Notes under the pieces: generated by a model
What the model was told of the DNA's origin: nothing
Databases searched by the model: none
Seen by the model: the letters and a program-made list of their open reading frames with translations, nothing else
IMG/VR virus record: IMGVR_UViG_3300012953_000001
Location: 64,001-128,000 of that record
Length of the DNA: 64,000 bases
From: a virus
Direction: 5' to 3' (one strand)
Program-made: the position numbers and the translations under genes
Part shown: positions 36,759-62,064 of the stretch, piece after piece
Position numbering within the stretch: the first letter of the stretch is position 1
Layout of the letters: every line of letters starts with the position of its first letter

Positions 36759-39700
36759 CTACAACTCCTCACCTTGTAATGGGTTTATTAGCTCATCGAC
36801 CTTATCATCCTGGCCTCTGTTGTAATAATCGTCCATGATTCCAGCGCCAAAGCTAACTTCGAAAAAGTCTGTCTCCCCACCTAATTTATCAAAAGCAGCG
36901 AGCAATAAGTTATCTATATTAGATTGCTCAGATACCTCTTCCACAGTCAGGTTTGCGAGATCCCCAAATCGTGCTGTTGTGAGCATAGACATGGGCAGAG
37001 TCAGTCTTTCCTGCTTGAGTGTACCTAGCAACTCATCCACAGTTTTGACAATATGGGCATCATACAAGAGATAGGCTTCGCGAACACTGTTCATCGCATC
37101 ACTAAGTTTCTCCAACAAAGTTACGTACTGCCCCTGTCCTGATCCAGAAGACACAAATACACGTGCTTCCCTCTGAAGCTCTCCAGATCCCGCTGCGGAA
37201 ATCAGTTCTCCCTCGGCTTTTCTTAGATCTCGAACCATAGTGATGAACTTGAACCAACCGTAAGCCACAATCTTCAAGTTCTCATATGGGTACGACACGG
37301 GAGAAACACCATCTAAAATGCGCATGGTCAATTTATTGCCTGAAACAGCTATGACTCTGCCCAACGGCCTAAGGGTTGTCCCTGTGCTCCCAGACAATTC
37401 TTCAAGGACAACGTCATTGGGATGAATCTCATACCCATCTCTTGGGTAAGTTCCTTGGAGATCTACCTCCAACTGAACCTCTGTGGAAAACCCGCTGTAC
37501 AGGTCCCCACTTGTATCAAACCCAAGCCCACCATTTACGGTAGATGTTACAGCGAGCGTACTATCTGATTCCGAGCTTTGAGACCTAGCCCGGATACGAC
37601 TTCTTGAAATATCACATGTCCAGTCGCCTTGGTTGGTAAGCTGTTCCGATTGTGTGTCGTCCACGGCAAGAGTTAGCGGGGGGTATACCTCCACTGCATA
37701 GCTTCCGCCTGAGAGCGCAGCGTAGGCGAGAACCTTGGTATGAAAAACGGGCGTGCCTCGACTGAGGGGCGCTCCTCCTGCTGACCACCTAACTCTTAAA
37801 TCATCCCCTTCCTCGGCCTGAATGTCCTCAGAAAAGGTCAACGTCTCTCCAGAGGAGTCTACTGTAAAGGAGACCCCAGTCATTAAGGTGTTTTCAGGAC
37901 AATCCACGTCCACTAAGCCAATACTGGATACTTGTGAAAACTGCGTGTCTTTTCCGAACCTCTCTTTTCGAGACGCGTACGTTGCCCCAAGAACATAGTT
38001 AGTATTCGGTAATGGGGTGCTCCAAGTTGGCGCAAAAGGTGCCGCAAGAAGTAAAGTACTCTCCAGGTAATTTGGAAAAGCCAACCTTGCCGCAGAACCC
38101 CTTTCGACATGAGGCCGAAAAAGGATGTTTGTGCTCGCCCCTTGCGCTTCTGAGGTAATAAGAAACTTATCAGTAAGGGCAGAAGAATTCAGCGCGTTCA
38201 CTAACATCTGAGGTGTGGTTATCCAGCTTGCAGGAATGCCCGGTGATAGTTCTGACGGTGTCTCGGTTATTACCGGTATTGGTGCCCCTACTAAATCGTT
38301 ATTTAGGTGCGCCCGAATAGCCGTGAATCCTGTTTGTATGCCCGAGTCCCCTGTGCTTACTGTGGCTACAGGCAGGTACTTGTAGTTTGTGTGTATTGAG
38401 GTTCCTTCGACTGCGGGGTAAGGCATCCGAATAAACATGTGTCCCGTCAGGTAGTGAACATAACCATAAGACTTGTGGTACATGTACGCCCCAGCCTGGA
38501 GATAATCTGTGGCAGCGGGGGCATATCCGTCTGTGTCCAGCAAGATCTTTCCAGTGTTATAGTTCACAGACAGACTAGGGGCAGACGCTCCTGTTGTGTT
38601 GCTCGTAACAACACAAAGATTATACCCTGGGTTGTTGGGGTCTGGGTTGGTAGTGGTTTGCCAGTCTATCAGGGCCGCGCCCATTTGCTCGGTAAGCGTG
38701 ATAGAAAGCGTAGAGTTGCTAGCAAGTTGGGCTCTAAGCTGATTGGTTGTAGGCGGATCCCCAAATCCAGGGACGGTAAACTGCTCCAGATTCCCATCAA
38801 AAGGGGTGTCTGGGTCCAGTTCATGCGGTGCCTCAGTGGTTGTACTTTTGTCTATCAGTATCCCATACCCGTTATCAACACAGTTGACCTCTACGGGTCC
38901 TTGCCCACTGTCGAAGTACCAAAAATTAACATTGACCCCGTTCTCATATCCGGGTCTTCCGTCAGATGGTCGAGTAGTTGTCTTAAGCCTCGGTATAGTT
39001 ACGATTGGGTAGCCGAGATCGTCTACCGTTCCGCCTATAAGGCCAGAGTTTTGTAGGTAAGGGTCTTCCGCGTACCCCGTAGTAGAAAACCAACGCTCTG
39101 TTGCAAGAATTTGTTTTGTATATTGCGTGTACAGCGCCCCAGCATCTGTGGACTCGAAGAGTGTGGAATTGACCAAGAAGCCATTCTCAGGTGCTCCAGA
39201 CTCAGGTCCAGAAATAGTCGCAGAAGACTGCTCATCGACCTCAAAAGTATCAGAAGCAGCACCGCCCTCAATAATGAAAGGTTTGGTGTCTCCCACCATT
39301 TCAGCGCGTGTACCCGGAAGGGTAGTCACAGAGCCTTCATACTTTGGGATGGTTACGTCTCTCTTCTTAGAAGATCTCCGACTGAGCAAAGAATTTAGTA
39401 CAACAGAATCAAGGATCGCAGCAGATAAGTCAGAACTTCCCACATGCGACTGAAGTGTCTTGGTGGCCAACTTTGCTTGGTTCTCAAGTGATAATGGCTC
39501 TAACTCAGCGGCGGTGTACTCATCGAGTGCCCCATGAAACCGTGGTATTTCCTCTAATAGGACCCCAATCAGAAAGTTAGTCTCTTCCGCTAATGCCAGT
39601 GATTGCTCTTTGGCGTACGAAGGACTAATGCCCGCATTGTGGAATCCGTCTTCGCCTACACTACTACTTACTAGTGCTTCAGTTACTCTAGAAAACTCCT

Positions 39701-40067
39701 GTAGAAGGAGTTGTTTCCGACCCTCATCAGCAACCTCTAGCTCATCACTTATCGCAATAAGCCTGTCTAATTTAGTGGTGTCAGGTTTGGGGTCTGTTTG
39801 TCTGGATACAGGTGCGTATCGAATAAGCAGGTCGATATTGGATAAGATCTTTGAGCAGATAATAATGTGTCTGTTAGCAAAGAGCTTCAGGAGAGCGTAT
39901 ATAGCGTCAACATCTGAGTTGAGGGACCTAAAGACAAGATCCTGAACACCGCTAACAAGGTCAACGGCTGACTGATTCTTGTTTCGGTCCAGTACCGCAG
40001 CACCAGCTTGAAGGGCTTCCGACCTCGCTAATACTTCTTCTTCGGTATAACTGTTGCTACCACTCAT
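36759..40067 (-). CDS. Large virion (baseplate-region) structural protein
   Basis: 1102 aa: helical ends around a beta-rich middle with a VNYNTGKILL module; sits among baseplate genes. Confidence 0.6.
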   Translation of the reverse strand: MSGSNSYTEEEVLARSEALQAGAAVLDRNKNQSAVDLVSGVQDLVFRSLNSDVDAIYALLKLFANRHIIICSKILSNIDLLIRYAPVSRQTDPKPDTTKLDRLIAISDELEVADEGRKQLLLQEFSRVTEALVSSSVGEDGFHNAGISPSYAKEQSLALAEETNFLIGVLLEEIPRFHGALDEYTAAELEPLSLENQAKLATKTLQSHVGSSDLSAAILDSVVLNSLLSRRSSKKRDVTIPKYEGSVTTLPGTRAEMVGDTKPFIIEGGAASDTFEVDEQSSATISGPESGAPENGFLVNSTLFESTDAGALYTQYTKQILATERWFSTTGYAEDPYLQNSGLIGGTVDDLGYPIVTIPRLKTTTRPSDGRPGYENGVNVNFWYFDSGQGPVEVNCVDNGYGILIDKSTTTEAPHELDPDTPFDGNLEQFTVPGFGDPPTTNQLRAQLASNSTLSITLTEQMGAALIDWQTTTNPDPNNPGYNLCVVTSNTTGASAPSLSVNYNTGKILLDTDGYAPAATDYLQAGAYMYHKSYGYVHYLTGHMFIRMPYPAVEGTSIHTNYKYLPVATVSTGDSGIQTGFTAIRAHLNNDLVGAPIPVITETPSELSPGIPASWITTPQMLVNALNSSALTDKFLITSEAQGASTNILFRPHVERGSAARLAFPNYLESTLLLAAPFAPTWSTPLPNTNYVLGATYASRKERFGKDTQFSQVSSIGLVDVDCPENTLMTGVSFTVDSSGETLTFSEDIQAEEGDDLRVRWSAGGAPLSRGTPVFHTKVLAYAALSGGSYAVEVYPPLTLAVDDTQSEQLTNQGDWTCDISRSRIRARSQSSESDSTLAVTSTVNGGLGFDTSGDLYSGFSTEVQLEVDLQGTYPRDGYEIHPNDVVLEELSGSTGTTLRPLGRVIAVSGNKLTMRILDGVSPVSYPYENLKIVAYGWFKFITMVRDLRKAEGELISAAGSGELQREARVFVSSGSGQGQYVTLLEKLSDAMNSVREAYLLYDAHIVKTVDELLGTLKQERLTLPMSMLTTARFGDLANLTVEEVSEQSNIDNLLLAAFDKLGGETDFFEVSFGAGIMDDYYNRGQDDKVDELINPLQGEEL

Positions 40068-40389
40068 CCCCGAACTCCATACCTCTAAGTCGCCTAGCGT
40101 CTTCTTCTGATATACTAGTAACTTTAGAGCGTACGAGGTCTGGTGATAAGCCTAGAATATCGCATACGATATTAAACGAACAGATATGATCTTCACTGTG
40201 ATCGTGAAAAAGCCATTGTCCTGCATCTGCTCCTATCTTCCGCAATTTCAAGCTCTCATGTTCGTGGTATAGCACCCAATCAACCGCCGCACGCCTAACA
40301 ACAGCAGCCCATAAGCGAAGGTACCAAGGCACTCCTGCCCCGGCATTGCCCCTCTCAATATCCCATAAAGCATCACGTGACGACAACAC
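40057..40389 (-). CDS. Conserved small phage protein (LWxAV...A..W....SF..VC..L family)
   Basis: LRLWAAVVRRAAVDW...AGQWLF...CSFNIVCDILGLSPDLVR. Confidence 0.65.
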   Translation of the reverse strand: MLSSRDALWDIERGNAGAGVPWYLRLWAAVVRRAAVDWVLYHEHESLKLRKIGADAGQWLFHDHSEDHICSFNIVCDILGLSPDLVRSKVTSISEEDARRLRGMEFGDEW

Positions 40390-41344
40390 TCAAGGCCCCC
40401 CGAAGCACCGGCTGGGGAGACATGGTTATACCCATATCCTCATCTGGAGCTTCTTGGGCGACTAAGAGTGTTGCGATTCCGACGCCTACAGCTGAAATCG
40501 TGAGAGTGTTACTGTCTGTAATTAAGTTTACTATAGTCCCACCTACATCATCAGACGTAAGCGTCACAGCGACAAGACCCTCCACTCTCAAGCCGCTCCG
40601 ATGAACGGTTTCCATTGAGAGTACTGCTTCTTGTCCCAACCCTAGGTTTACCACTGGTAGGTCTAGGGGAACTAATAATGAATCCGTGTTCGTGTCTGTA
40701 TACTCGACACCATCAACCACTGGAAATATTACGTCTGGTAGCGGAGAAGCAGCTAGGTCAGGAATCTCGATCTTTCTCGATAGATTCTCGTAACCCTCCA
40801 TATATACTTTGTATGTCGCACCGCGTAATAAATCGACCGTGGCGTAACCTGCACTATCTGTGCGTATAACTAATGACTTTGGGATAATAGCATTTGTTGT
40901 GTTGGTCCCTGAATAGTATGCAAGTTCCGGTAAGTCATCTTCCGAAAAATGAATACTAAGCTGATCCACCGGTCTCCCGTATGAATCCATAAAGGTTCCC
41001 GAACAACGACAAAAGTGATCGTCTGTCGCTGTCGGTAAAGCTGAGACATCAATAAGTACGTCAAACACCTGCGGGTCAGTTACTGCGTCTACAACCGCAG
41101 AGTGCAGATTGCCCTCTATGACAGACGCGGCTCCTAACGGAGGTGTGACTCTAATTTCATAAGTTGCAGCAGGATGATCGCCCAAATCCACGCTACCTGC
41201 GGGGTTTGGTCCTGCTCCCGTGGTCCCAGTAGCAATCGCAACACCGCCGCCAGAGGGATGTAGGGATACAACAACGCCATCTACCATGGCGCTCCCCGGA
41301 TCCCCAAAAGGGGTTGTTCTACAATGTACTAAGACTGTTGGCAT
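40373..41344 (-). CDS. Virion protein with carboxypeptidase-regulatory/Ig-like beta domains
   Basis: Beta-rich; shares the C...G.PV...TDS.GY....L..G domain with 44100-46073. Confidence 0.6.
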   Translation of the reverse strand: MPTVLVHCRTTPFGDPGSAMVDGVVVSLHPSGGGVAIATGTTGAGPNPAGSVDLGDHPAATYEIRVTPPLGAASVIEGNLHSAVVDAVTDPQVFDVLIDVSALPTATDDHFCRCSGTFMDSYGRPVDQLSIHFSEDDLPELAYYSGTNTTNAIIPKSLVIRTDSAGYATVDLLRGATYKVYMEGYENLSRKIEIPDLAASPLPDVIFPVVDGVEYTDTNTDSLLVPLDLPVVNLGLGQEAVLSMETVHRSGLRVEGLVAVTLTSDDVGGTIVNLITDSNTLTISAVGVGIATLLVAQEAPDEDMGITMSPQPVLRGALSVVVT

Positions 41345-41355
41345 TTTCTATCCGA

Positions 41356-42093
41356 CTACCTTGATTTACTAAGCGTAGTTAAGTAGCTACCACCTCGGGA
41401 AGGTCCCATGGTGTTTTGTGATTGGGGGCCAGCTTTCCAGGCGTTATAGCTATTTTTCGCCATCTTTCCGCCGTAATACATGCTCGCAGCGCCAGCGCCT
41501 GTCATACCGACTCGACCAGCCTTGCCCCAGCCACCCAGACTTTTCCAGGGGCTAGACTTGAAGCTCATGCCTCCAAGAGATCTATTCCAGGGCATGCTTC
41601 CGCTGACAGCCGAACGTGCTCGATTACTAAAGCCTGCGCGAGCAGTTTGTGCAGCTTGTTGGGCTCGTCCAAGGCTCTGTCGCTCCAACATTCCTTTGGC
41701 ACCTCGCTGTGCGTAGGTCAGCCCTTTGTACGCGCCTGTGCCCGCCTTCTGCGCTGTACTGATGCCCTTGATAGTGCGACCAGCCATGTACGCTTTACGG
41801 CCAGCATTTGCTGCGCGAGCAGCCAAGACTCCGCCCCTAACAAGTCCACCAGCAACATTTAATCCGGGGATGAACATTGTAGCGGTAAGAGCCGCATCTA
41901 ATGGGTTGTCCTTGATATAGTTACCCACACTCTTAATGCCACCCCACGCCTTACGGCCCACACGTCTAGCCCACTGCCAAGCGACCTTCTCCATATAAGG
42001 GTCGATAGCAACAAGTTCTTCAGCAAAGGAACGCTGCATTCTATTTCTGGCAGCTACTTTCACCAGTGCATATCTTAACTGTTGATTATCCAT
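41356..42093 (-). CDS. Basic KxA-motif protein (putative internal virion/ejection protein)
   Basis: LVKVA and MEKVA motifs, then a cationic Gly/Ala-rich body with hydrophobic stretches; C-terminal RGGSYLTTLSK. Confidence 0.6.
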   Translation of the reverse strand: MDNQQLRYALVKVAARNRMQRSFAEELVAIDPYMEKVAWQWARRVGRKAWGGIKSVGNYIKDNPLDAALTATMFIPGLNVAGGLVRGGVLAARAANAGRKAYMAGRTIKGISTAQKAGTGAYKGLTYAQRGAKGMLERQSLGRAQQAAQTARAGFSNRARSAVSGSMPWNRSLGGMSFKSSPWKSLGGWGKAGRVGMTGAGAASMYYGGKMAKNSYNAWKAGPQSQNTMGPSRGGSYLTTLSKSR

Positions 42094-47242: not shown

Positions 47243-48112
47243 TTACTCCGTAAGATGCCTCTGAAGTTTCTTTTTAATAGTGTTCTTCAGGCGACTAACT
47301 TGGTAATCGGGAATTTTCATTGCACGAGCAATAGTTCCCGTAGAGGACGTTTGAGGTTTGCCGTGTCCGGTCAAATACTCATATACCTCTCGTTCATTAC
47401 CCGTTAGTTCATACTTAAATAGGCGCAAAACCTCTTCAGATTTTGAAGGTGTTAACGCATACGGGTCCTCTTCGAACCCTTGAGAGAGCAAGTCGTTCCG
47501 TAGCTCGGCTTCCATCCTTCCGGTTTCAGCCATTGACCACCCGAGTCGCTCAGAAATTTCTTTAGTCAGAGGTGTCCTACCAAGATCTTCGGTAAGTTCA
47601 TCTCTGGCAGTTGTGAACAACTTGATCTTATAAACCCGATTCTCGGGGATACGACCAATATTCTGGTTCTCAACAATAAATCGTTTGGCCTTGTCTAAAT
47701 AACGAAAGACATAGGTACCGAGAGACCCCTTAGAGGGATCATATGAGCGTAAGGCATCTACAAAGCGTAGCTGAAACTCTGACTCAATAGCTGAGTCGGG
47801 AATCATCTTTACCTTACCCTTGTAGACATTGACCTTAGACCTGATCATTGGACGGAAGCTTTTGAGGAGAGGTCGGAGGTCTTCCGGCCTCTCCCCATTG
47901 GCTTTCCAATTATTCCACATCGCAAGCTCTCGACTCTTCTTATCATCTAAGTTGTCTAGAGCATTGAATGTGGCAAGGTTAGTCTCCGTGGCTTCCTCAG
48001 CATCCCTGGTGTGCTGTTTTACGGATACAACTTTCCCATTAGTTCGCCGTGGGTGTGCTCTTACTTGAGTACTCCCTGCGTACTTGAGAAATTCGGATAC
48101 TGGATCAGCCAC
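47243..48112 (-). CDS. Sigma-70 family RNA polymerase sigma factor (SigB/FliA-like) with an atypical N-terminal tag
   Basis: Region 2 (LLKSFRPMI...FVDALRSYDPSKGSLGTYV), RIPE, region 3 (LGRTPLTKEISERLGWS) and region 4 (TIARAMKIPDYQVSRLKNTIKKKL). GTG 48112 is better spaced from AAAGGT than ATG 48121. Confidence 0.9.
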   Translation of the reverse strand: MADPVSEFLKYAGSTQVRAHPRRTNGKVVSVKQHTRDAEEATETNLATFNALDNLDDKKSRELAMWNNWKANGERPEDLRPLLKSFRPMIRSKVNVYKGKVKMIPDSAIESEFQLRFVDALRSYDPSKGSLGTYVFRYLDKAKRFIVENQNIGRIPENRVYKIKLFTTARDELTEDLGRTPLTKEISERLGWSMAETGRMEAELRNDLLSQGFEEDPYALTPSKSEEVLRLFKYELTGNEREVYEYLTGHGKPQTSSTGTIARAMKIPDYQVSRLKNTIKKKLQRHLTE

Positions 48113-48125
48113 GGACAACATACCT

Positions 48126-57337: not shown

Positions 57338-58006
57338 CTATCCTCCTATTTTCGTGTTAGGCATTCGAGCAAAACCAATTAACCTAGTTTCTCTATCAAG
57401 ATCGTGGGTTAATCGTTTTACGTGGGAGGGAAATCTCCCAACGTTTCCTTCTATTGTTTCTATCACACCGTGCTGATAATTCTCAATAATTCCAATGTGG
57501 CCTTGCCAAGACCCAGGCTTTCCTCGATCCCAGCATACGATATCGCCTGCTGCTGGTATCGTTACCTCAGACCCCGCTTCTTTGATATACTTGTACAGCG
57601 CTTTCGCTCCGTGACTAGTTTTGAAGGGAAGGTCAACGCCGAGACTATCCGCTGCAACCATACAGCAGTAACTAACGAAACTAGCACACCAAGCACCATC
57701 ATCATCAGGATTGCCGTCGTCAGGAATTCCTTTATAGCGAGCGATATGCTCCCCAGAGTTGTTACCACCAATTTCACCATTGCCGATCTCCTTGATAGCT
57801 GTTTCTAAAGCCATGAGACCGAGATTACTTGTGGGACCACTATTACCAAACATATCTAATAATAATGACTGCTGGGTTTGTGGGCCGCAGTAACCATCAA
57901 CAGACAAGCCCTTGCTTTCCTGCCAATGTTTAACGAGATGCATTATCTGCTCTTGGGTAAACAGCCCAAGCTCGATTTGGTGTTTATTATATGATTCTGC
58001 GCTCAT
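57338..58006 (-). CDS. Modular endolysin: N-terminal PG-binding domain plus CHAP amidase/peptidase
   Basis: VKHWQESKGLSVDGYCGPQT (PG_binding_1); AWCASFVSY, GHIGII and TIEGN (CHAP motifs). Confidence 0.9.
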   Translation of the reverse strand: MSAESYNKHQIELGLFTQEQIMHLVKHWQESKGLSVDGYCGPQTQQSLLLDMFGNSGPTSNLGLMALETAIKEIGNGEIGGNNSGEHIARYKGIPDDGNPDDDGAWCASFVSYCCMVAADSLGVDLPFKTSHGAKALYKYIKEAGSEVTIPAAGDIVCWDRGKPGSWQGHIGIIENYQHGVIETIEGNVGRFPSHVKRLTHDLDRETRLIGFARMPNTKIGG

Positions 58007-58015
58007 ACGTATCCT

Positions 58016-58810
58016 TTAAAAATTCATCCTGAATAAGTTGCCCTGCCCAGTGGGGCTAAATGGCAATACGCCTGTATTCTTTTGTCCAAAAGGGTTGAAC
58101 TTTTGTCCAGCCCTAGGGGCTCTTGGAGTAGCCGGTGGCTTAGCCGGTCTTGTGATGCCTGAATTTGGGTACATGGGCGTTCTCGCCCTCATCAAACTGT
58201 TTGGCCCTGCGGCACTAGTCGCATTGGGTGACGGGGGCGTAGGCATCTTGGGGATCTTCAGCTTTAGCTTCGAGACAAGCGAAAGATTTTTACTCCAAGG
58301 GTGGGGTCCAGCCCTTACCGGAGTATGCGTTGGTCCCGTTGGTCTATTGAGTACGTTTGGTGCTGACTTACCTACCACTCTAGTTGGTTGACTGTATCCC
58401 CCAGGGGTAGTCTTGGTCCCAGATAAGGGTGGGGAAAGCATGGAGCCCTGTAGCAACTCCCCAGGACCACGCATACCAACTGGTTTAGATGAGTCCATGT
58501 ACCTACTCTGCCTATTAGTAGCTACTGCTTTTGCTTTTTGGTGCTTAGCTTGGATCTTATTCTGGATCCCTGTCCCTAATGCACCACCCTTACTACCGTA
58601 ATTGCCTGGAGCTTTAGGCATGTCAAATGCTTTGCCTCCGGGATGCGGCTTAGGGTTCTTAGTGCCATCCTTTACCACAGGTCTTGGGCGAGCTTTTCTT
58701 GGGGAATACGCGACCTTCTCCAACAGACCGAGGACATAATTGTCCGCAATCTTGGCTACAGCTATTTTTTCAAGCTCATCCCGCATTGACCTAAGAATAG
58801 ACACGTTCAT
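58016..58810 (-). CDS. Pro/Lys-rich disordered KxA-motif protein
   Basis: MRDELEKIAVAKIADNYVLGLLEKVA gives three motifs in 35 aa; the remainder is low complexity. Confidence 0.6.
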   Translation of the reverse strand: MNVSILRSMRDELEKIAVAKIADNYVLGLLEKVAYSPRKARPRPVVKDGTKNPKPHPGGKAFDMPKAPGNYGSKGGALGTGIQNKIQAKHQKAKAVATNRQSRYMDSSKPVGMRGPGELLQGSMLSPPLSGTKTTPGGYSQPTRVVGKSAPNVLNRPTGPTHTPVRAGPHPWSKNLSLVSKLKLKIPKMPTPPSPNATSAAGPNSLMRARTPMYPNSGITRPAKPPATPRAPRAGQKFNPFGQKNTGVLPFSPTGQGNLFRMNF

Positions 58811-58815
58811 TGCAA

Positions 58816-59733
58816 TTAACCCTTTTGCATTTTTCGGGCTAATTCAAGCAGTTTATCCTGAACACCCTTCTTACCGCCCAACTCACCACGAGTGCTTAGT
58901 GGAACCGAGATAGACCCGTCTCGCTTCATACGGTCAATCGCTTTATCTCCAAAGCGCTTTCTCCAAGCCTTCTCCATTGCGGGAGACAGCTTCGAAGCCG
59001 ATGTGTCTGGCATAAAGAACGCGCCCATTGGGTTTCTTTTGCCTCGCTTCGGTTGCATATTAATAATGTCTTTCGCCCCCATCATCTTATGCAGTCTTCG
59101 TCTACCAAAGAAGCCAAGGGTTGGAGTATCTTTAATGCCCTTCTTCAAGGCTGATACGGCTAACATCTGTGGCCCCATCCCCACTAATTTTGCCTTGAGC
59201 ATCGGGCTCAACGTGGACTCGCCCTTTCTAGCAGCCTTAGCCCCCAACGCAGCGGCAGCAACATTACCAGAAGCCCCAGAGAGATAAGTCGTGTAAGCCC
59301 ACAACAGATCCCTTCGCGCCTTCTTGTATGTTTTTGGTGCAATACCTTTGAGCTTCTTTAGAGCCTTAAGTCCATGGTACGTGGCCAAGAATTCTTCTGC
59401 CAGTCTGGGTGCTTCCCCTGCGGCTTGAACTGCGCCATCTTGAACCATGTGTTTTCGTAGTTCTTTCTTACTTGGGGCCTTTCCAACGCCACGAGAATAC
59501 CGACGATACTTGTTAATTAGTTGAGAGACCCCTGGGCCTGCTCCATAACCAAGCATCCGAAGCTTTCGAACAGTTTTGCTTGAGCCTCTTAACGTCTTTG
59601 CATGCCCAAGCTCATGTGCAAGGATAGATGCAGGCGCTCTATGAGGAGTGCCTTTTCGTACAAGAGTCTCTAGCCCTCTACCCATCATCTGTTTTAGTGC
59701 GCTCTTCGCAGCATACTTCTCTAATGCGTTCAT
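58816..59733 (-). CDS. Zincin metallopeptidase (YugP/Zn_peptidase_2-like) with a MNALEKYAAK leader
   Basis: ILAHELGHA, LAEEFLAT and KARRDLLWAYTTYL parallel YugP AHEVGHA / VEFDAS / ARKVLxAAALTYV. Confidence 0.65.
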   Translation of the reverse strand: MNALEKYAAKSALKQMMGRGLETLVRKGTPHRAPASILAHELGHAKTLRGSSKTVRKLRMLGYGAGPGVSQLINKYRRYSRGVGKAPSKKELRKHMVQDGAVQAAGEAPRLAEEFLATYHGLKALKKLKGIAPKTYKKARRDLLWAYTTYLSGASGNVAAAALGAKAARKGESTLSPMLKAKLVGMGPQMLAVSALKKGIKDTPTLGFFGRRRLHKMMGAKDIINMQPKRGKRNPMGAFFMPDTSASKLSPAMEKAWRKRFGDKAIDRMKRDGSISVPLSTRGELGGKKGVQDKLLELARKMQKG

Positions 59734-60281
59734 TAAAATGTCCCCTGTATATTACCGGTAAAGTAGGGTTTTCGTTGGTTCCGACCTGCTCCTACTGGCA
59801 ACCGCGCCCCAATATTACCACGAATATTCTTTGATAATCTTCCGCCCCAACCCATGTTTAAGGTGCTTGGTCGTCCACCCGACAAGGTGGTCCCAACGCT
59901 AAGTGGACCGGCTTTCACGCCTAAGTTAGTCATAGACTTCTTCGGCATTACATCTCGCCAAGTCATTCCGACCGGCGCTCCGCTTCTGGCTAAACTTCGA
60001 TTGATAGAGAGACGCTGCAAGTTATCAGTTGCGCCCTGACCCCTAGCCATAATGCCTTGTAATCCCTTAGTAGGTCTTTCCATTTTGCTAAGAGAGGTCA
60101 TCGGGTTGCTTGAATGAGAAGCTGTCACCTTAACGGGTGACTTAGAGTACGCCTTGCCAATCCCAGAAAGGGTGGCCCCAACAGACGAACTAACTGTTGG
60201 CTTAGCCAAAATCTTCTTAGCTATCTCGGCTAACTTGGTAGTTAGCTTTCGCTTGGACGCGTATTTCTCTAAGGCGTTCAC
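59733..60281 (-). CDS. Basic protein with a (M)NALEKYASK leader
   Basis: GTG 60281 with AAAGGGG upstream, just after the previous stop at 60284; in frame with the 60341 ORF. Confidence 0.6.
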   Translation of the reverse strand: MNALEKYASKRKLTTKLAEIAKKILAKPTVSSSVGATLSGIGKAYSKSPVKVTASHSSNPMTSLSKMERPTKGLQGIMARGQGATDNLQRLSINRSLARSGAPVGMTWRDVMPKKSMTNLGVKAGPLSVGTTLSGGRPSTLNMGWGGRLSKNIRGNIGARLPVGAGRNQRKPYFTGNIQGTF

Positions 60282-60283
60282 GG

Positions 60284-60916
60284 TTATGACCCCTTTACCC
60301 ATTTCTGGTTGTCTTTGTCTTTCGTCTTGCTTGGGCTCCACTTGACCTTATCCGCCCAATAAGCCGCACTCAAACGACCCTTGGAAATGTTCTTGCCGTG
60401 GCGGGACTTAAACGCCTTGCGTTGACCAGCGGTCTGGTTGGTCTTCACGCCCTGCTGCCCAAAGCGGATAGTCTTTACTTGGTCACCCTCTTTAGCAACA
60501 ACGATGTGAGACTTAGTAGGGTGATTAGGTGTGCGCTTAGGCTTGTTGTAGCCAGAAACACCAGCACGTTCTAGCCGTGGGTCTCTCGAAGCGGCAATCT
60601 TAGCCCAAGCCTTCTTGGTCTTCTCGTCTTTAGGGACCACTCTCTCACCCTTATGCACACGAGCGTATGGCTTGCCCTTCTTGTCGGTCAAATAGCCATC
60701 CTTCTTCACGGGTCCGCCCTTGGAATAACCAGCTAGTCCGCTACCCTTCATCATCCGTTGGGTGAAATTGGAGTTCCCCATCATGGCGATTTTCAGCTTG
60801 TCACTGACAGCCTGAAGACGTTCGGCTTGACTTTTATGCATCTTGGAAGCCCCGTGAAGTTCCTTAACAATCTTCTTGAGCTTCTTCTTAGCGGCATATT
60901 TCTCTAGCGATCTCAT
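60284..60916 (-). CDS. Modular basic protein: MRSLEKYAAK leader, GG...HKGERV module and RFGQQG...SAAYWA domain
   Basis: ATG 60916 overlaps the previous TGA (ATGA). The C-terminal DPRLERAGVSGYNKPKRTPNHPTKSH...RFGQQG...RH...SAAYWA domain is one I recognise as a standalone small protein in marine phages. Confidence 0.7.
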   Translation of the reverse strand: MRSLEKYAAKKKLKKIVKELHGASKMHKSQAERLQAVSDKLKIAMMGNSNFTQRMMKGSGLAGYSKGGPVKKDGYLTDKKGKPYARVHKGERVVPKDEKTKKAWAKIAASRDPRLERAGVSGYNKPKRTPNHPTKSHIVVAKEGDQVKTIRFGQQGVKTNQTAGQRKAFKSRHGKNISKGRLSAAYWADKVKWSPSKTKDKDNQKWVKGS

Positions 60917-62064
60917 ATAGACCACCGGTCATTCTTTAGGCCTTCCTTCGTTCTCGGCGTAAGGTTTTGCCTATTGATCTGGGGTGTTGGGTAATACTCT
61001 CGGTATGGCATGGTTCCTCCGGAAGGAGTAGTCTTGCCAGTCTTACCGCCTAATCCGCCTTTGGCTTTAGGAGATTTGAGGAAAGCGCCCTTTGCTGCCT
61101 TAAGCCTATCGGTGAGACGGTTCTTGTCCCATGCTTTTTTGGCTTCCCAGCCCAGTACCCCTCCAGCAGCAGCGATTGCTGGTTTAGAGTTAACAAGCCT
61201 TGCAGCCATGCCACCCATTCTTCCGTAGTTTCTTCCAGCACGAGCAGCGAAAGTAGCCCCTCTGTTACCCCAAGTGGTAACAGGTGCTTTGATCCCAGTG
61301 CGTCCTCGCTTGAATCCCTCTTGCAAGCCTTTGCCAGCAGCCTGGGGGATTTGGCGGAGTCCAGTGGCCCCTGAGCGAACAGCAGCCTTTAGTCCTCTCC
61401 CTAATAAAGCCAAGTTTGCTGTCTTCACAGCGTCAACGCTCCCAGCCTTGCTCAACATAGTTAAGTAGGATCCTCCACGGACTTGCGAAGGGGGCGTAGG
61501 CGGCTTTATTGTTTTCGCCGCCGCGCTCAATGCCCCAGATTGCGCCTTATGTATCCAGCTACTCTTAACCTTTATTGGTTTGCCTGTGGTGTCAGGTTGT
61601 CCATTGCTTCCTTTAGGTAATTTGTATGCACCATAAGAGGACGCTTGCAGCGTGAGCGGGTGACCGCCCTGGGCGATTTTGCGTAATGCTGAATTTAGTT
61701 TCACTTTAGCTCCTGGAAAGACTGCGTCTTTGACCGGGTTTGGGTGCTCCCAGACCCTCTTCAGGGTTTTCTGGTAGCGCCCTTCTGGTTTTCTTGGTGT
61801 AGAGGATATTCCGCCACCACCTTTCATAATATCCAGGTAACTTCCCCCACGCGCCTGCCCACGTTGCGCACCACCGCTGCTCCCTTTGGAAGCTGAGGCT
61901 ACCGCCCTACTTAAGATCTTTGACGTGTCTTTTGTCTCTGGGTACTTCATTGGAGCGCCAGAGTACGGGTCTAACCCTGACTGCCTAAAAATTTCGAAGT
62001 CAGACTTGGCTAGCTTCTCAAAAGCATCGTTAATATATGCTAAGTAATACTGCTTAGTACTCAT
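60913..62064 (-). CDS. Basic KxA-motif protein with two RGGSYL motifs
   Basis: FEKLA, LRKIA and VKTA motifs; RGGSYLDIM and RGGSYLTML. Confidence 0.6.
   Translation of the reverse strand: MSTKQYYLAYINDAFEKLAKSDFEIFRQSGLDPYSGAPMKYPETKDTSKILSRAVASASKGSSGGAQRGQARGGSYLDIMKGGGGISSTPRKPEGRYQKTLKRVWEHPNPVKDAVFPGAKVKLNSALRKIAQGGHPLTLQASSYGAYKLPKGSNGQPDTTGKPIKVKSSWIHKAQSGALSAAAKTIKPPTPPSQVRGGSYLTMLSKAGSVDAVKTANLALLGRGLKAAVRSGATGLRQIPQAAGKGLQEGFKRGRTGIKAPVTTWGNRGATFAARAGRNYGRMGGMAARLVNSKPAIAAAGGVLGWEAKKAWDKNRLTDRLKAAKGAFLKSPKAKGGLGGKTGKTTPSGGTMPYREYYPTPQINRQNLTPRTKEGLKNDRWSI

What the first reader, a model, noticed from the sequence alone, without database searches (positions are those of the whole stretch)
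60284..60916. KxA sites fall at module junctions: a mini-polyprotein
The layout is leader-LEKYA, helix, KLKIA|MMG...GGPVKKDG...VHKGERVVP, then WAKIA|ASRDPRLERAGVSGYNKPKR...SAAYWA. From memory, standalone marine-phage versions of the last domain begin at about M-x-x-DPRL, where the KxA ends. If so, a foreign gene was captured behind a KxA linker, which is the best internal hint that KxA is a cleavage site releasing cargo domains.
Basis: partly seen in the sequence, partly recalled or inferred. Interest (0 to 1): 0.7.

Follow-up and report, generated by a model that had tools for sequence, protein, structure and literature searches.

The report
Protease-jointed phage cargo mini-polyprotein
A 210-residue protein of a 178-kb marine phage is a chain of small basic modules joined at Lys-x-Ala motifs, the same motif that marks this phage family's head proteins. 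It is therefore probably loaded into the capsid and cut into separate pieces by the head protease, though no cut has been measured.

Summary
The gene (window 60284-60916, minus strand) encodes four parts in order:
- a leader ending LEKYA;
- a helix ending KLKIA;
- a 56-aa middle module followed by the linker KKAWAKIA;
- a 102-aa domain (phrog_7595).

Free-standing homologues of the last domain start M-x(2-5)-D[PS]RL, exactly where KIA ends.

Comparison supports the junction reading:
- The middle module occurs in 38 protein clusters at any position. K-x-A directly precedes it in 18 of the 20 full-length copies found by a motif search.
- In fused homologues of the window-type last domain, K-x-A ends 1-6 residues before D in 48 of 64, against 6% at random positions. 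In the remaining (other-type) fused homologues it does so in 1 of 37.
- Modules occur split, fused and in permuted order.
- K-x-A followed by S, A or G is enriched in scaffold and head proteins here and in the cultured relative, Salmonella phage Arash.
- K-x-A is invariant or nearly so at two flexible sites of a T4 gp21-like protease.

Caveats:
- Bare K-x-A is at chance frequency in this protein and in the proteome.
- Two of the four sites have an atypical next residue.
- No cleavage has been measured.
- There is no DUF5754 match.

This scan has reported the same kind of protease-jointed cargo polyprotein on other phage DNA with hydrophobic-x-Glu joints. The new element here is the Lys-x-Ala rule.

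The parts
60284..60916 (-). Gene for the 210-aa precursor. Start ATG at 60916, stop TAA at 60284-60286. Predicted pI 10.5.
   Evidence: The ATG overlaps the TGA of the upstream gene (ATGA).
60893..60916 (-). Leader, aa 1-8, ending LEKYA with Ala as the next residue. It is one copy of the family-wide cargo leader.
   Evidence: LEKYA-type leaders open 6 or more genes in this genome. LEKYA is encoded 9, 4, 2 and 2 times in four relatives, with 0 in the controls and with synonymous codon differences. The strict 5-mer occurs 39 times against 8.6 in shuffles, and 24 of the 39 lie in the first 40 aa.
60785..60892 (-). Basic helix module, aa 9-44, ending KLKIA.
   Evidence: A homologous segment lies after the middle module in P0008. 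In L133:5200-6057 it is joined directly to the last domain. It is single copy in this genome.
60617..60784 (-). Middle module, aa 45-100 (P0001). Its core is 75-90% conserved.
   Evidence: It was found in 38 cluster representatives at any position in proteins of 69-935 aa. K-x-A directly precedes 18 of the 20 full copies found by motif search, and the other two have K-E-G (by eye 20 of 22). In most copies a K-x-A follows 4-8 residues after the VVP motif.
60593..60616 (-). Linker KKAWAKIA, aa 101-108, holding two K-x-A sites. The second abuts the last domain.
   Evidence: The same linker, KKAWAK-x-A with minor variants, follows the module in P0002, P0003, P0004, P0007, P0009 and P0021, with unrelated sequence behind it. 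WAKLA also precedes the module in P0011, P0015 and P0019.
60287..60592 (-). Last domain, aa 109-210. It matches phrog_7595 and is basic, with a helix, a beta-hairpin and two helices.
   Evidence: phrog_7595 at E 1.6e-32. AF2 model with pLDDT 80. No PDB fold match. Free-standing homologues. Fused homologues and junction statistics.
59733..60281 (-). Next cargo gene. Its real start is probably the GTG at 60281, two bases after the TAA, which gives (M)NALEKYA.
   Evidence: Sequence reading. Its orthologue in relative G003 starts MNVLEKYA.
58016..59733 (-). Two more leader-bearing basic cargo genes: 58816-59733 (starts MNALEKYA) and 58016-58810 (has LEKIA and LEKVA).
60913..62064 (-). Upstream basic cargo gene with FEKLA at aa 15-19. 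It has 9 K-x-A against 5.0 expected.
57338..58006 (-). CHAP and peptidoglycan-binding hydrolase that flanks the cargo cluster. The same flank is conserved in relatives G001 and G003.
   Evidence: Arash carries a cell-wall hydrolase in its virions (PMC10585845).

Best explanation
The gene encodes a capsid-addressed precursor.

1. Its N-terminal LEKYA-type leader is shared by many otherwise unrelated basic proteins of this phage family. The leader takes the precursor into the prohead (inferred).
2. The phage's T4 gp21-like head protease (genome 25605-27290, outside the window) cuts after the small residue of accessible Lys-x-Ala motifs (inferred).
3. Cutting separates the leader, a basic helix peptide, a conserved module of about 58-64 aa and a 102-aa basic domain (phrog_7595).
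4. The pieces stay with the DNA as internal or ejected proteins (inferred).

Shown here:
- the module architecture;
- K-x-A conserved at the joints across many unrelated contexts;
- the same modules found split, fused and in permuted order;
- enrichment of the motif in head proteins;
- conservation of the motif at two flexible sites of the protease.

Not shown: cleavage, packaging and ejection.
For: **Middle module.**
- It sits anywhere in 38 protein clusters.
- K-x-A directly precedes 18 of the 20 full copies found by motif search. The middle residue varies (Q, M, S, L, Y, E, K, T, I), the upstream sequence is unrelated, and the other two copies have K-E-G.
- Copies at a protein's N-terminus still carry a mini-leader of the form M-x-x-K-x-A.
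- A K-x-A follows 4-8 residues after the module in most copies.

**Last domain.** In window-type fused homologues, 48 of 64 have K-x-A and 55 of 64 have K-x-[ASG] ending 1-6 residues before D. There are 11 distinct P5-P1 contexts. The figure at random positions is 6%, and in the other-type fused homologues it is 1 of 37. In several proteins K-x-A also follows the domain directly.

**Split, fused and permuted states.**
- Relative G003 has an ORF that runs leader, module, second complete leader, other cargo.
- A second module ('mod2') lies before or after the middle module, or is a separate leader-bearing gene.
- The helix module lies before the middle module here and after it in P0008.

**Head module.**
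- K-x-A occurs 54 times against 25 +/- 4.5 in this genome, and 39 times against 16.9 +/- 3.7 in Arash gp220-226. The next residue is S, A or G in about 70% of cases.
- The scaffold has 6 sites against 1.0 expected.
- The major capsid protein has KEKIA followed by A at aa 23-28, and Arash has VKEA followed by G at the same place.

**Protease.**
- The model's best PDB match is T4 gp21, 5JBL (probability 1.0, E 9e-4).
- K29-x-A31 is invariant and K229-x-A231 nearly so in 35 homologues. Both lie in segments with pLDDT below 50.

**Virion context.** Arash virions contain RNA polymerase, a sigma factor and a hydrolase (PMC10585845).
Against: - No proteomic or biochemical data exist for this phage. 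The Arash paper did not analyse cleavage.
- Bare K-x-A is at chance frequency in this protein (4 against 3.6). It is barely enriched across the proteome (324 against 296, z = 2).
- Some K-x-A lie inside folded domains, for example inside the Hc1 domain of P0005, so the motif alone cannot be sufficient.
- Two of the four sites here are followed by M or W, not S, A or G.
- A generic test on BLAST alignment boundaries gave only weak enrichment: 0.18 against 0.14 and 0.23 against 0.15.
- Of the window-type junctions, 16 of 64 lack strict K-x-A. Seven of those have K-x-S or K-x-G, for example the KTS-then-AA junction of L133:5200-6057.
- K and A could simply be conserved first residues of each module.
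Confidence: 0.7

Rival explanations
1. Only the last domain is cargo. The first 108 residues (leader, helix and middle module) form a long propeptide or carrier. It is diced at K-x-A and lost, as with the long propeptides of SPN3US gp53 and gp54.
For: In SPN3US all mapped cuts, apart from the protease's self-cleavage, produce N-terminal propeptides, and these are cut several times (PMC10052503). The middle module is far more conserved than whatever it is joined to, which would fit a part that docks on a conserved head component.
Against: The middle module is single copy per genome, whereas the LEKYA leader is multi-copy. The module also occurs at C-termini and almost alone in proteins of about 104 aa. 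A discarded carrier would not be expected there.
Confidence: 0.2
2. K-x-A is not cut. It is part of an amphipathic helix or linker that binds the scaffold or capsid interior, or is just a flexible joint. The protein acts as one fused chain.
For: The leaders stay conserved for about 12 residues beyond the first K-x-A, which suggests a binding helix. Bare K-x-A is at chance frequency. No cleavage data exist.
Against: Permuted module order, and the same modules found both split and fused, are easier to tolerate if the modules work separately. Six sites in an acidic scaffold, and conserved sites flanking the protease fold, match the pattern of processed heads. N-terminal mini-leaders of 5-6 residues ending K-x-A have nothing to link.
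Confidence: 0.15
3. The joints reflect how the genes recombine: short conserved DNA at leader or linker sequences acts as crossover points. Under this reading K-x-A has no protein-level role.
For: The linker KKAWAK-x-A and the leader recur and could offer 20-40 bases of microhomology. Earlier first-reader notes raised this idea (e1-5770752).
Against: The middle residue and the flanks of K-x-A vary widely, with 11 or more distinct P5-P1 contexts. Leader codons differ at synonymous sites. Recombination would not explain the enrichment in scaffold, capsid protein and protease.
Confidence: 0.05

Closest known systems
Phage T4 internal proteins IPI, IPII, IPIII and Alt: capsid-targeting sequence plus processing by prohead protease gp21 (PMC9026906)
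   Same: A short N-terminal leader is shared by unrelated head-internal proteins. The leader ends in the protease's motif. The same motif occurs in the scaffold, the capsid protein and the protease. The protease here has the gp21 fold.
   Different: The motif is Lys-x-Ala followed by a small residue, not Leu/Ile-x-Glu. Here the sites also lie between conserved modules that are shuffled, permuted and found split or fused. In T4 one leader is removed from one protein.
phiKZ-like giant phage SPN3US: head proteins cut at Ala-x-Glu by gp245 (PMC10052503, PMC5694885)
   Same: The motif is defined at P3 and P1 with a free P2, and Ser is preferred at P1'. There are many substrates, protease self-cleavage and several cuts within one protein.
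   Different: In SPN3US the cuts produce N-terminal propeptides. Here both flanks of conserved modules carry sites, which implies several retained products. The specificity also differs.
Polyvalent proteins of phages and conjugative elements (Iyer et al. 2017, PMC5512222)
   Same: Several unrelated domains sit in one packaged polypeptide and are proposed to be processed into units. NUDIX and other domains are fused to these modules in relatives.
   Different: Those proteins are large, with 2-15 domains, and are mostly thought to be processed by an internal metallopeptidase domain. This one has 210 aa and no peptidase domain, and is proposed to be cut in trans by the head protease at a defined tripeptide.
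Herpesvirus assemblin, which cuts (V/L/I)-x-Ala before Ser (my own knowledge; primary reference listed as ref. 56 in PMC5512222)
   Same: Ala at P1, a small residue (Ser) at P1', a specified P3, and the same protease clan as T4 gp21. Herpes proteases appear as weak fold hits.
   Different: P3 here is Lys, not a hydrophobic residue. The likeness is by analogy only and no kinetic or structural test was made.
Salmonella phage Arash (PMC10585845), the nearest cultured relative
   Same: The protease is 41% identical and the capsid protein 27%. K-x-A followed by S, A or G is enriched in its head module. Its virions contain RNA polymerase, a sigma factor and a hydrolase.
   Different: It has no middle module. 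No DNA match to the last-domain region was seen among cultured-phage records from Arash, and a protein-level search was not run. Its published proteome was not analysed for cleavage.

Membership tests
phrog_7595 (small basic protein of marine phages, function unknown) | Significant full-length match to the family profile | tested here: met
   E 1.6e-32, profile positions 4-96 of 96, on residues 113-196 of the 213-aa reading. The domain is 76% identical to CRP-5 gp32.
   A Pfam scan at E up to 1 lists only DUF3659 and Phage_tail_tube_init, both at E 0.026 and below their cut-offs. NCBIfam gives nothing. DUF5872 occurs in some fused relatives, but upstream of this domain.
T4-type capsid-targeted, protease-processed internal head proteins | A common N-terminal leader on otherwise unrelated proteins encoded with the virion genes | tested here: met
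   LEKYA-type leaders on 6 or more genes here and 9, 4, 2 and 2 LEKYA matches in four relatives, with none in the controls.
T4-type capsid-targeted, protease-processed internal head proteins | The leader ends in the motif that also marks the scaffold, the capsid protein and the protease | tested here: met
   K-x-A in the scaffold (6 against 1.0), at the capsid protein N-terminus and at conserved protease sites. Head set: 54 against 25. The T4 motif itself (L/I-x-E) is not the one used.
T4-type capsid-targeted, protease-processed internal head proteins | A gp21-like prohead protease encoded by the phage | tested here: met
   phrog_18299 at E 1.8e-9. The AF2 model's top PDB hit is T4 gp21, 5JBL, with probability 1.0. 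His104, Ser160 and Asp168 are invariant and His144 nearly so.
T4-type capsid-targeted, protease-processed internal head proteins | Physical presence in the head and removal of the leader | not testable with these tools
   No virion proteome exists for this uncultured phage. The Arash data do not address cleavage.
Polyvalent proteins (Iyer et al. 2017) | Two or more distinct, independently occurring domains in one polypeptide of a virion-associated gene | tested here: met
   The helix, the middle module and the last domain each occur in other contexts.
Polyvalent proteins (Iyer et al. 2017) | An internal processing peptidase domain (a metallopeptidase in most) | tested here: not met
   No peptidase domain is found in the 210-aa protein.

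The most novel reading that the evidence does not exclude
A large, mostly uncultured family of phages of about 180 kb (with Arash as a distant cultured relative) runs a plug-and-play cargo system. A gp21-fold head protease has a herpes-assemblin-like Lys-x-Ala specificity that is new for phages. Any small gene placed behind a K-x-A joint is loaded via a shared leader and then released. This would explain why modules, including Hc1 histone-like and NUDIX domains and the phrog_7595 domain, are found free, fused and permuted. The conserved 58-aa middle module would be an excised peptide with an essential role of its own.
Probability: 0.45. Interest if true: 0.75.

Novelty: new variant of a known kind. 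Interest (0 to 1): 0.62.

Why it matters
If the cuts are real, this gives a second, sequence-readable processing code for phage heads: Lys-x-Ala before a small residue, alongside the Glu-ending codes of T4 and phiKZ. The code would allow three things.
- Mature virion contents could be predicted from sequence for a very large marine phage family that also packages its own RNA polymerase and sigma factor.
- It would explain how small foreign genes become deliverable cargo.
- It would point to a minimal tag-plus-joint design for loading proteins into capsids.

The idea can be tested directly in the cultured relative, Arash.

Tried and rejected
1. **Homology between the middle module and the last domain.** MAFFT aligned them, but hhalign gives a probability of 0.2%. 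Rejected.
2. **PDB sequence search.** The precursor gave no match and the protease gave none that was significant.
3. **PDB fold search of the last domain.** Nothing below E 1. BFVD gives only uncharacterised phage proteins, some of them longer and annotated XkdF or ChaB.
4. **Close orthologues through the neighbouring 490-aa gene in IMG/VR.** None found.
5. **The middle module in cultured phages.** None found.
6. **A generic test that BLAST block boundaries fall near K-x-A.** Only weak enrichment. The boundaries are blurred by core-only matches.
7. **The apparent 540-aa fusion in L037.** It is an in-frame read-through into a terminase gene, not a fusion.
8. **ESM Atlas on the middle module.** Only unnamed viral clusters were found. 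The nearest named cluster, crAss cargo protein 1 at a score of 0.75, is at chance level.
9. **The Arash paper.** It gives sequence coverage figures only and no termini.
10. **Signal-peptidase reading of A-x-A-like sites.** There is no hydrophobic core, so this was not pursued.

Full report
**Context.** The window is bases 64001-128000 of a 178,429-bp phage genome. The target gene lies in a tight minus-strand run of basic genes beside a CHAP hydrolase. I take its start to be the ATG at 60916, which overlaps the TGA of the upstream gene. This gives 210 aa. The next gene most likely starts at the GTG at 60281, two bases after the TAA, and then reads (M)NALEKYA.

**Observation.** In 210-aa numbering the protein reads as follows:
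- leader, aa 1-8, ending LEKYA;
- basic helix, aa 9-44, ending KLKIA;
- middle module, aa 45-100, starting MMGNS;
- linker KKAWAKIA, aa 101-108;
- last domain, aa 109-210, starting ASRDPRL.

The last domain matches phrog_7595 (E 1.6e-32). It has no Pfam or NCBIfam match, so no DUF5754. At the DNA level only this domain matches cultured marine phages, at about 73%. Their genes are free-standing, 87-97 aa long, and begin M plus 2-7 residues before the position that aligns with DPRL. Most of the 80 best IMG/VR loci also have a Met 2-6 residues before D[PS]RL.

**Is bare K-x-A meaningful?** Not by count.
- The protein has 4 against 3.6 expected.
- The proteome has 324 against 296 (z = 2).
- The strict leader form, [LIVMF][ED]K-x-A, occurs 39 times against 8.6 (z = 10.5). 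Of these, 24 lie in the first 40 residues, and the next residue is A, S or G in 20.
- In the head module, outside the window, K-x-A occurs 54 times against 25 +/- 4.5. About 70% are followed by S, A or G. The acidic scaffold has 6 against 1.0, and the capsid protein has KEKIA followed by A at residues 23-28.

**Cultured relative.** The nearest cultured relative is Salmonella phage Arash. Its protease is 41% identical and its capsid protein 27%.
- Arash shows the same pattern: 39 against 16.9 +/- 3.7 in gp220-226, the same preference for the following residue, and VKEA followed by G at the matching place in its capsid protein.
- Arash virions contain RNA polymerase, a sigma factor and a hydrolase (PMC10585845). 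No cleavage analysis was published.

**Protease.** Genome 25605-27290 matches a head-maturation protease family.
- An AlphaFold model of residues 1-280 (pLDDT 74) has T4 gp21 (5JBL) as its top PDB hit, with herpes proteases weaker.
- In 35 homologues K29-x-A31 is invariant and K229-x-A231 nearly so. Both lie in low-confidence loops that flank the fold. This is what self-processing sites would look like.

**Comparative test of the joints.**
- *Relative G003* (180 kb, found through its capsid protein). It has a 202-aa ORF in which the middle module follows the leader directly. The module is then followed, in frame, by a second complete leader and a different cargo.
- *Search of 1.84 billion representatives.* The middle module was found in 38 clusters, anywhere in proteins of 69-935 aa.
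  - K-x-A directly precedes 18 of the 20 full copies found by motif search (by eye, 20 of 22). The middle residue varies and the upstream sequence is unrelated. The other two copies have K-E-G.
  - Copies at an N-terminus still carry M-x-x-K-x-A.
  - A K-x-A follows 4-8 residues after the module in most copies, often as KKAWAK-x-A, and unrelated sequence comes next. The linker in the window therefore belongs to the module, and the last domain is one of many things found behind it.
- *Module order.*
  - A second recurrent module lies before the middle module, after it, or in a separate leader-bearing gene.
  - The helix module lies after the middle module in P0008. It is joined directly to the last domain in L133:5200-6057.
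  - Hc1 histone-like and NUDIX domains are fused into some of these chains and are free-standing in others.
  - 641 longer proteins carry the last domain.
  - Among the 120 best, 64 are of the window type and have the domain internal. Of these, 48 have K-x-A and 55 have K-x-[ASG] ending 1-6 residues before D, in 11 or more distinct contexts. The figure at random positions is 6.1%.
  - Among the 37 other-type fused homologues, only 1 has K-x-A.
  - The Ser and Gly variants suggest that P1 must simply be small.
  - The motif is thus tied to one lineage, as a protease-matched site would be.

**Mechanism.** I conclude, at about 0.7, that this is a capsid-addressed precursor cut at accessible K-x-A sites by the gp21-like protease.
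- The products would be a leader, a 4-kDa helix peptide, a module of about 7 kDa and an 11.4-kDa domain. All are basic, with pI 10.2-10.8.
- Addressing, cutting and retention are all inferences.
- The last domain models as a helix, a beta-hairpin and two helices (pLDDT 80) and has no known fold relative. Its function is unknown. A DNA-associated internal protein is my guess from its charge alone.

**Against.**
- Two of the four sites are followed by M or W.
- Some K-x-A lie inside folded domains.
- A generic block-boundary test was weak.
- K and A could be conserved module residues.

**Relation to known systems and to this scan.**
- The logic is that of T4's capsid-targeting sequence with gp21 (PMC9026906) and of SPN3US cutting at A-x-E (PMC10052503).
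- The specificity, however, resembles herpes assemblin. The joints also lie between retained, shuffled modules rather than at the end of one propeptide.
- Polyvalent proteins (PMC5512222) are the nearest published concept for multi-domain packaged chains.
- This scan has already reported protease-jointed cargo polyproteins in several T4-like phages with hydrophobic-x-Glu joints. It has also reported the two-leader ORF on another genome. Those notes are leads, not evidence. I found the G003 ORF independently.

Noticed in passing
L121:1489-2097 (+), relative G003: A 202-aa ORF with two complete LEKYA leaders in one frame. It runs leader, middle module, second leader, different cargo. It looks like a fusion of two adjacent cargo genes.
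   Followed up: partly
P0002-P0016, and L123:4515-4835: A second mobile module of about 75 aa. Its core contains DDDA-x-MLCKVL and WAEYK-x-YKAGD and it ends KSA. K-x-A then G precedes it, and it lies before or after the middle module or in a gene of its own. It is absent from this genome.
   Followed up: partly
Protease homologues P0088, P0108, P0123, P0130, P0132, P0133, P0142, P0145: Several homologues of the head protease are 750-950 aa long and carry precomputed Pfam hits PF14528, PF05203 and PF13403, which I take to be Hint and LAGLIDADG families. That would mean inteins inside the protease gene.
   Followed up: no
window 58816-59733 (-): A leader-bearing 305-aa cargo protein with an HExxH motif and a weak hit to Zn_peptidase_2 (E 0.042). 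It is a possible packaged metallopeptidase.
   Followed up: no
window 59733-60341 (-): The ORF as listed starts at a GTG that overlaps the target gene by 58 bases. A GTG at 60281, two bases after the target's stop, gives the standard leader (M)NALEKYA and is the more likely start.
   Followed up: partly
L131:2218-3165 (+): A 315-aa very basic protein of another phage repeats the short motif GY-[SA]-KGG-x-VKK several times. The start of the middle module's core is therefore also a low-complexity repeat unit elsewhere.
   Followed up: no
P0005, P0014, P0176, and L133:3028-3216: Hc1 histone-like and NUDIX domains occur inside long chains that also hold the middle module or the last domain. Hc1 is a free 62-aa gene in L133.
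   Followed up: partly
Genome 39429-41420 (-), outside the window: A 663-aa protein with 17 K-x-A against 3.7-3.8 expected. This is the strongest enrichment in the genome, and the protein is a candidate heavily processed head or core protein.
   Followed up: no
window 47243-48121 (-): A sigma-factor homologue (phrog_351, E 1.3e-11) inside the cargo cluster. Arash packages its sigma factor in virions (PMC10585845).
   Followed up: no
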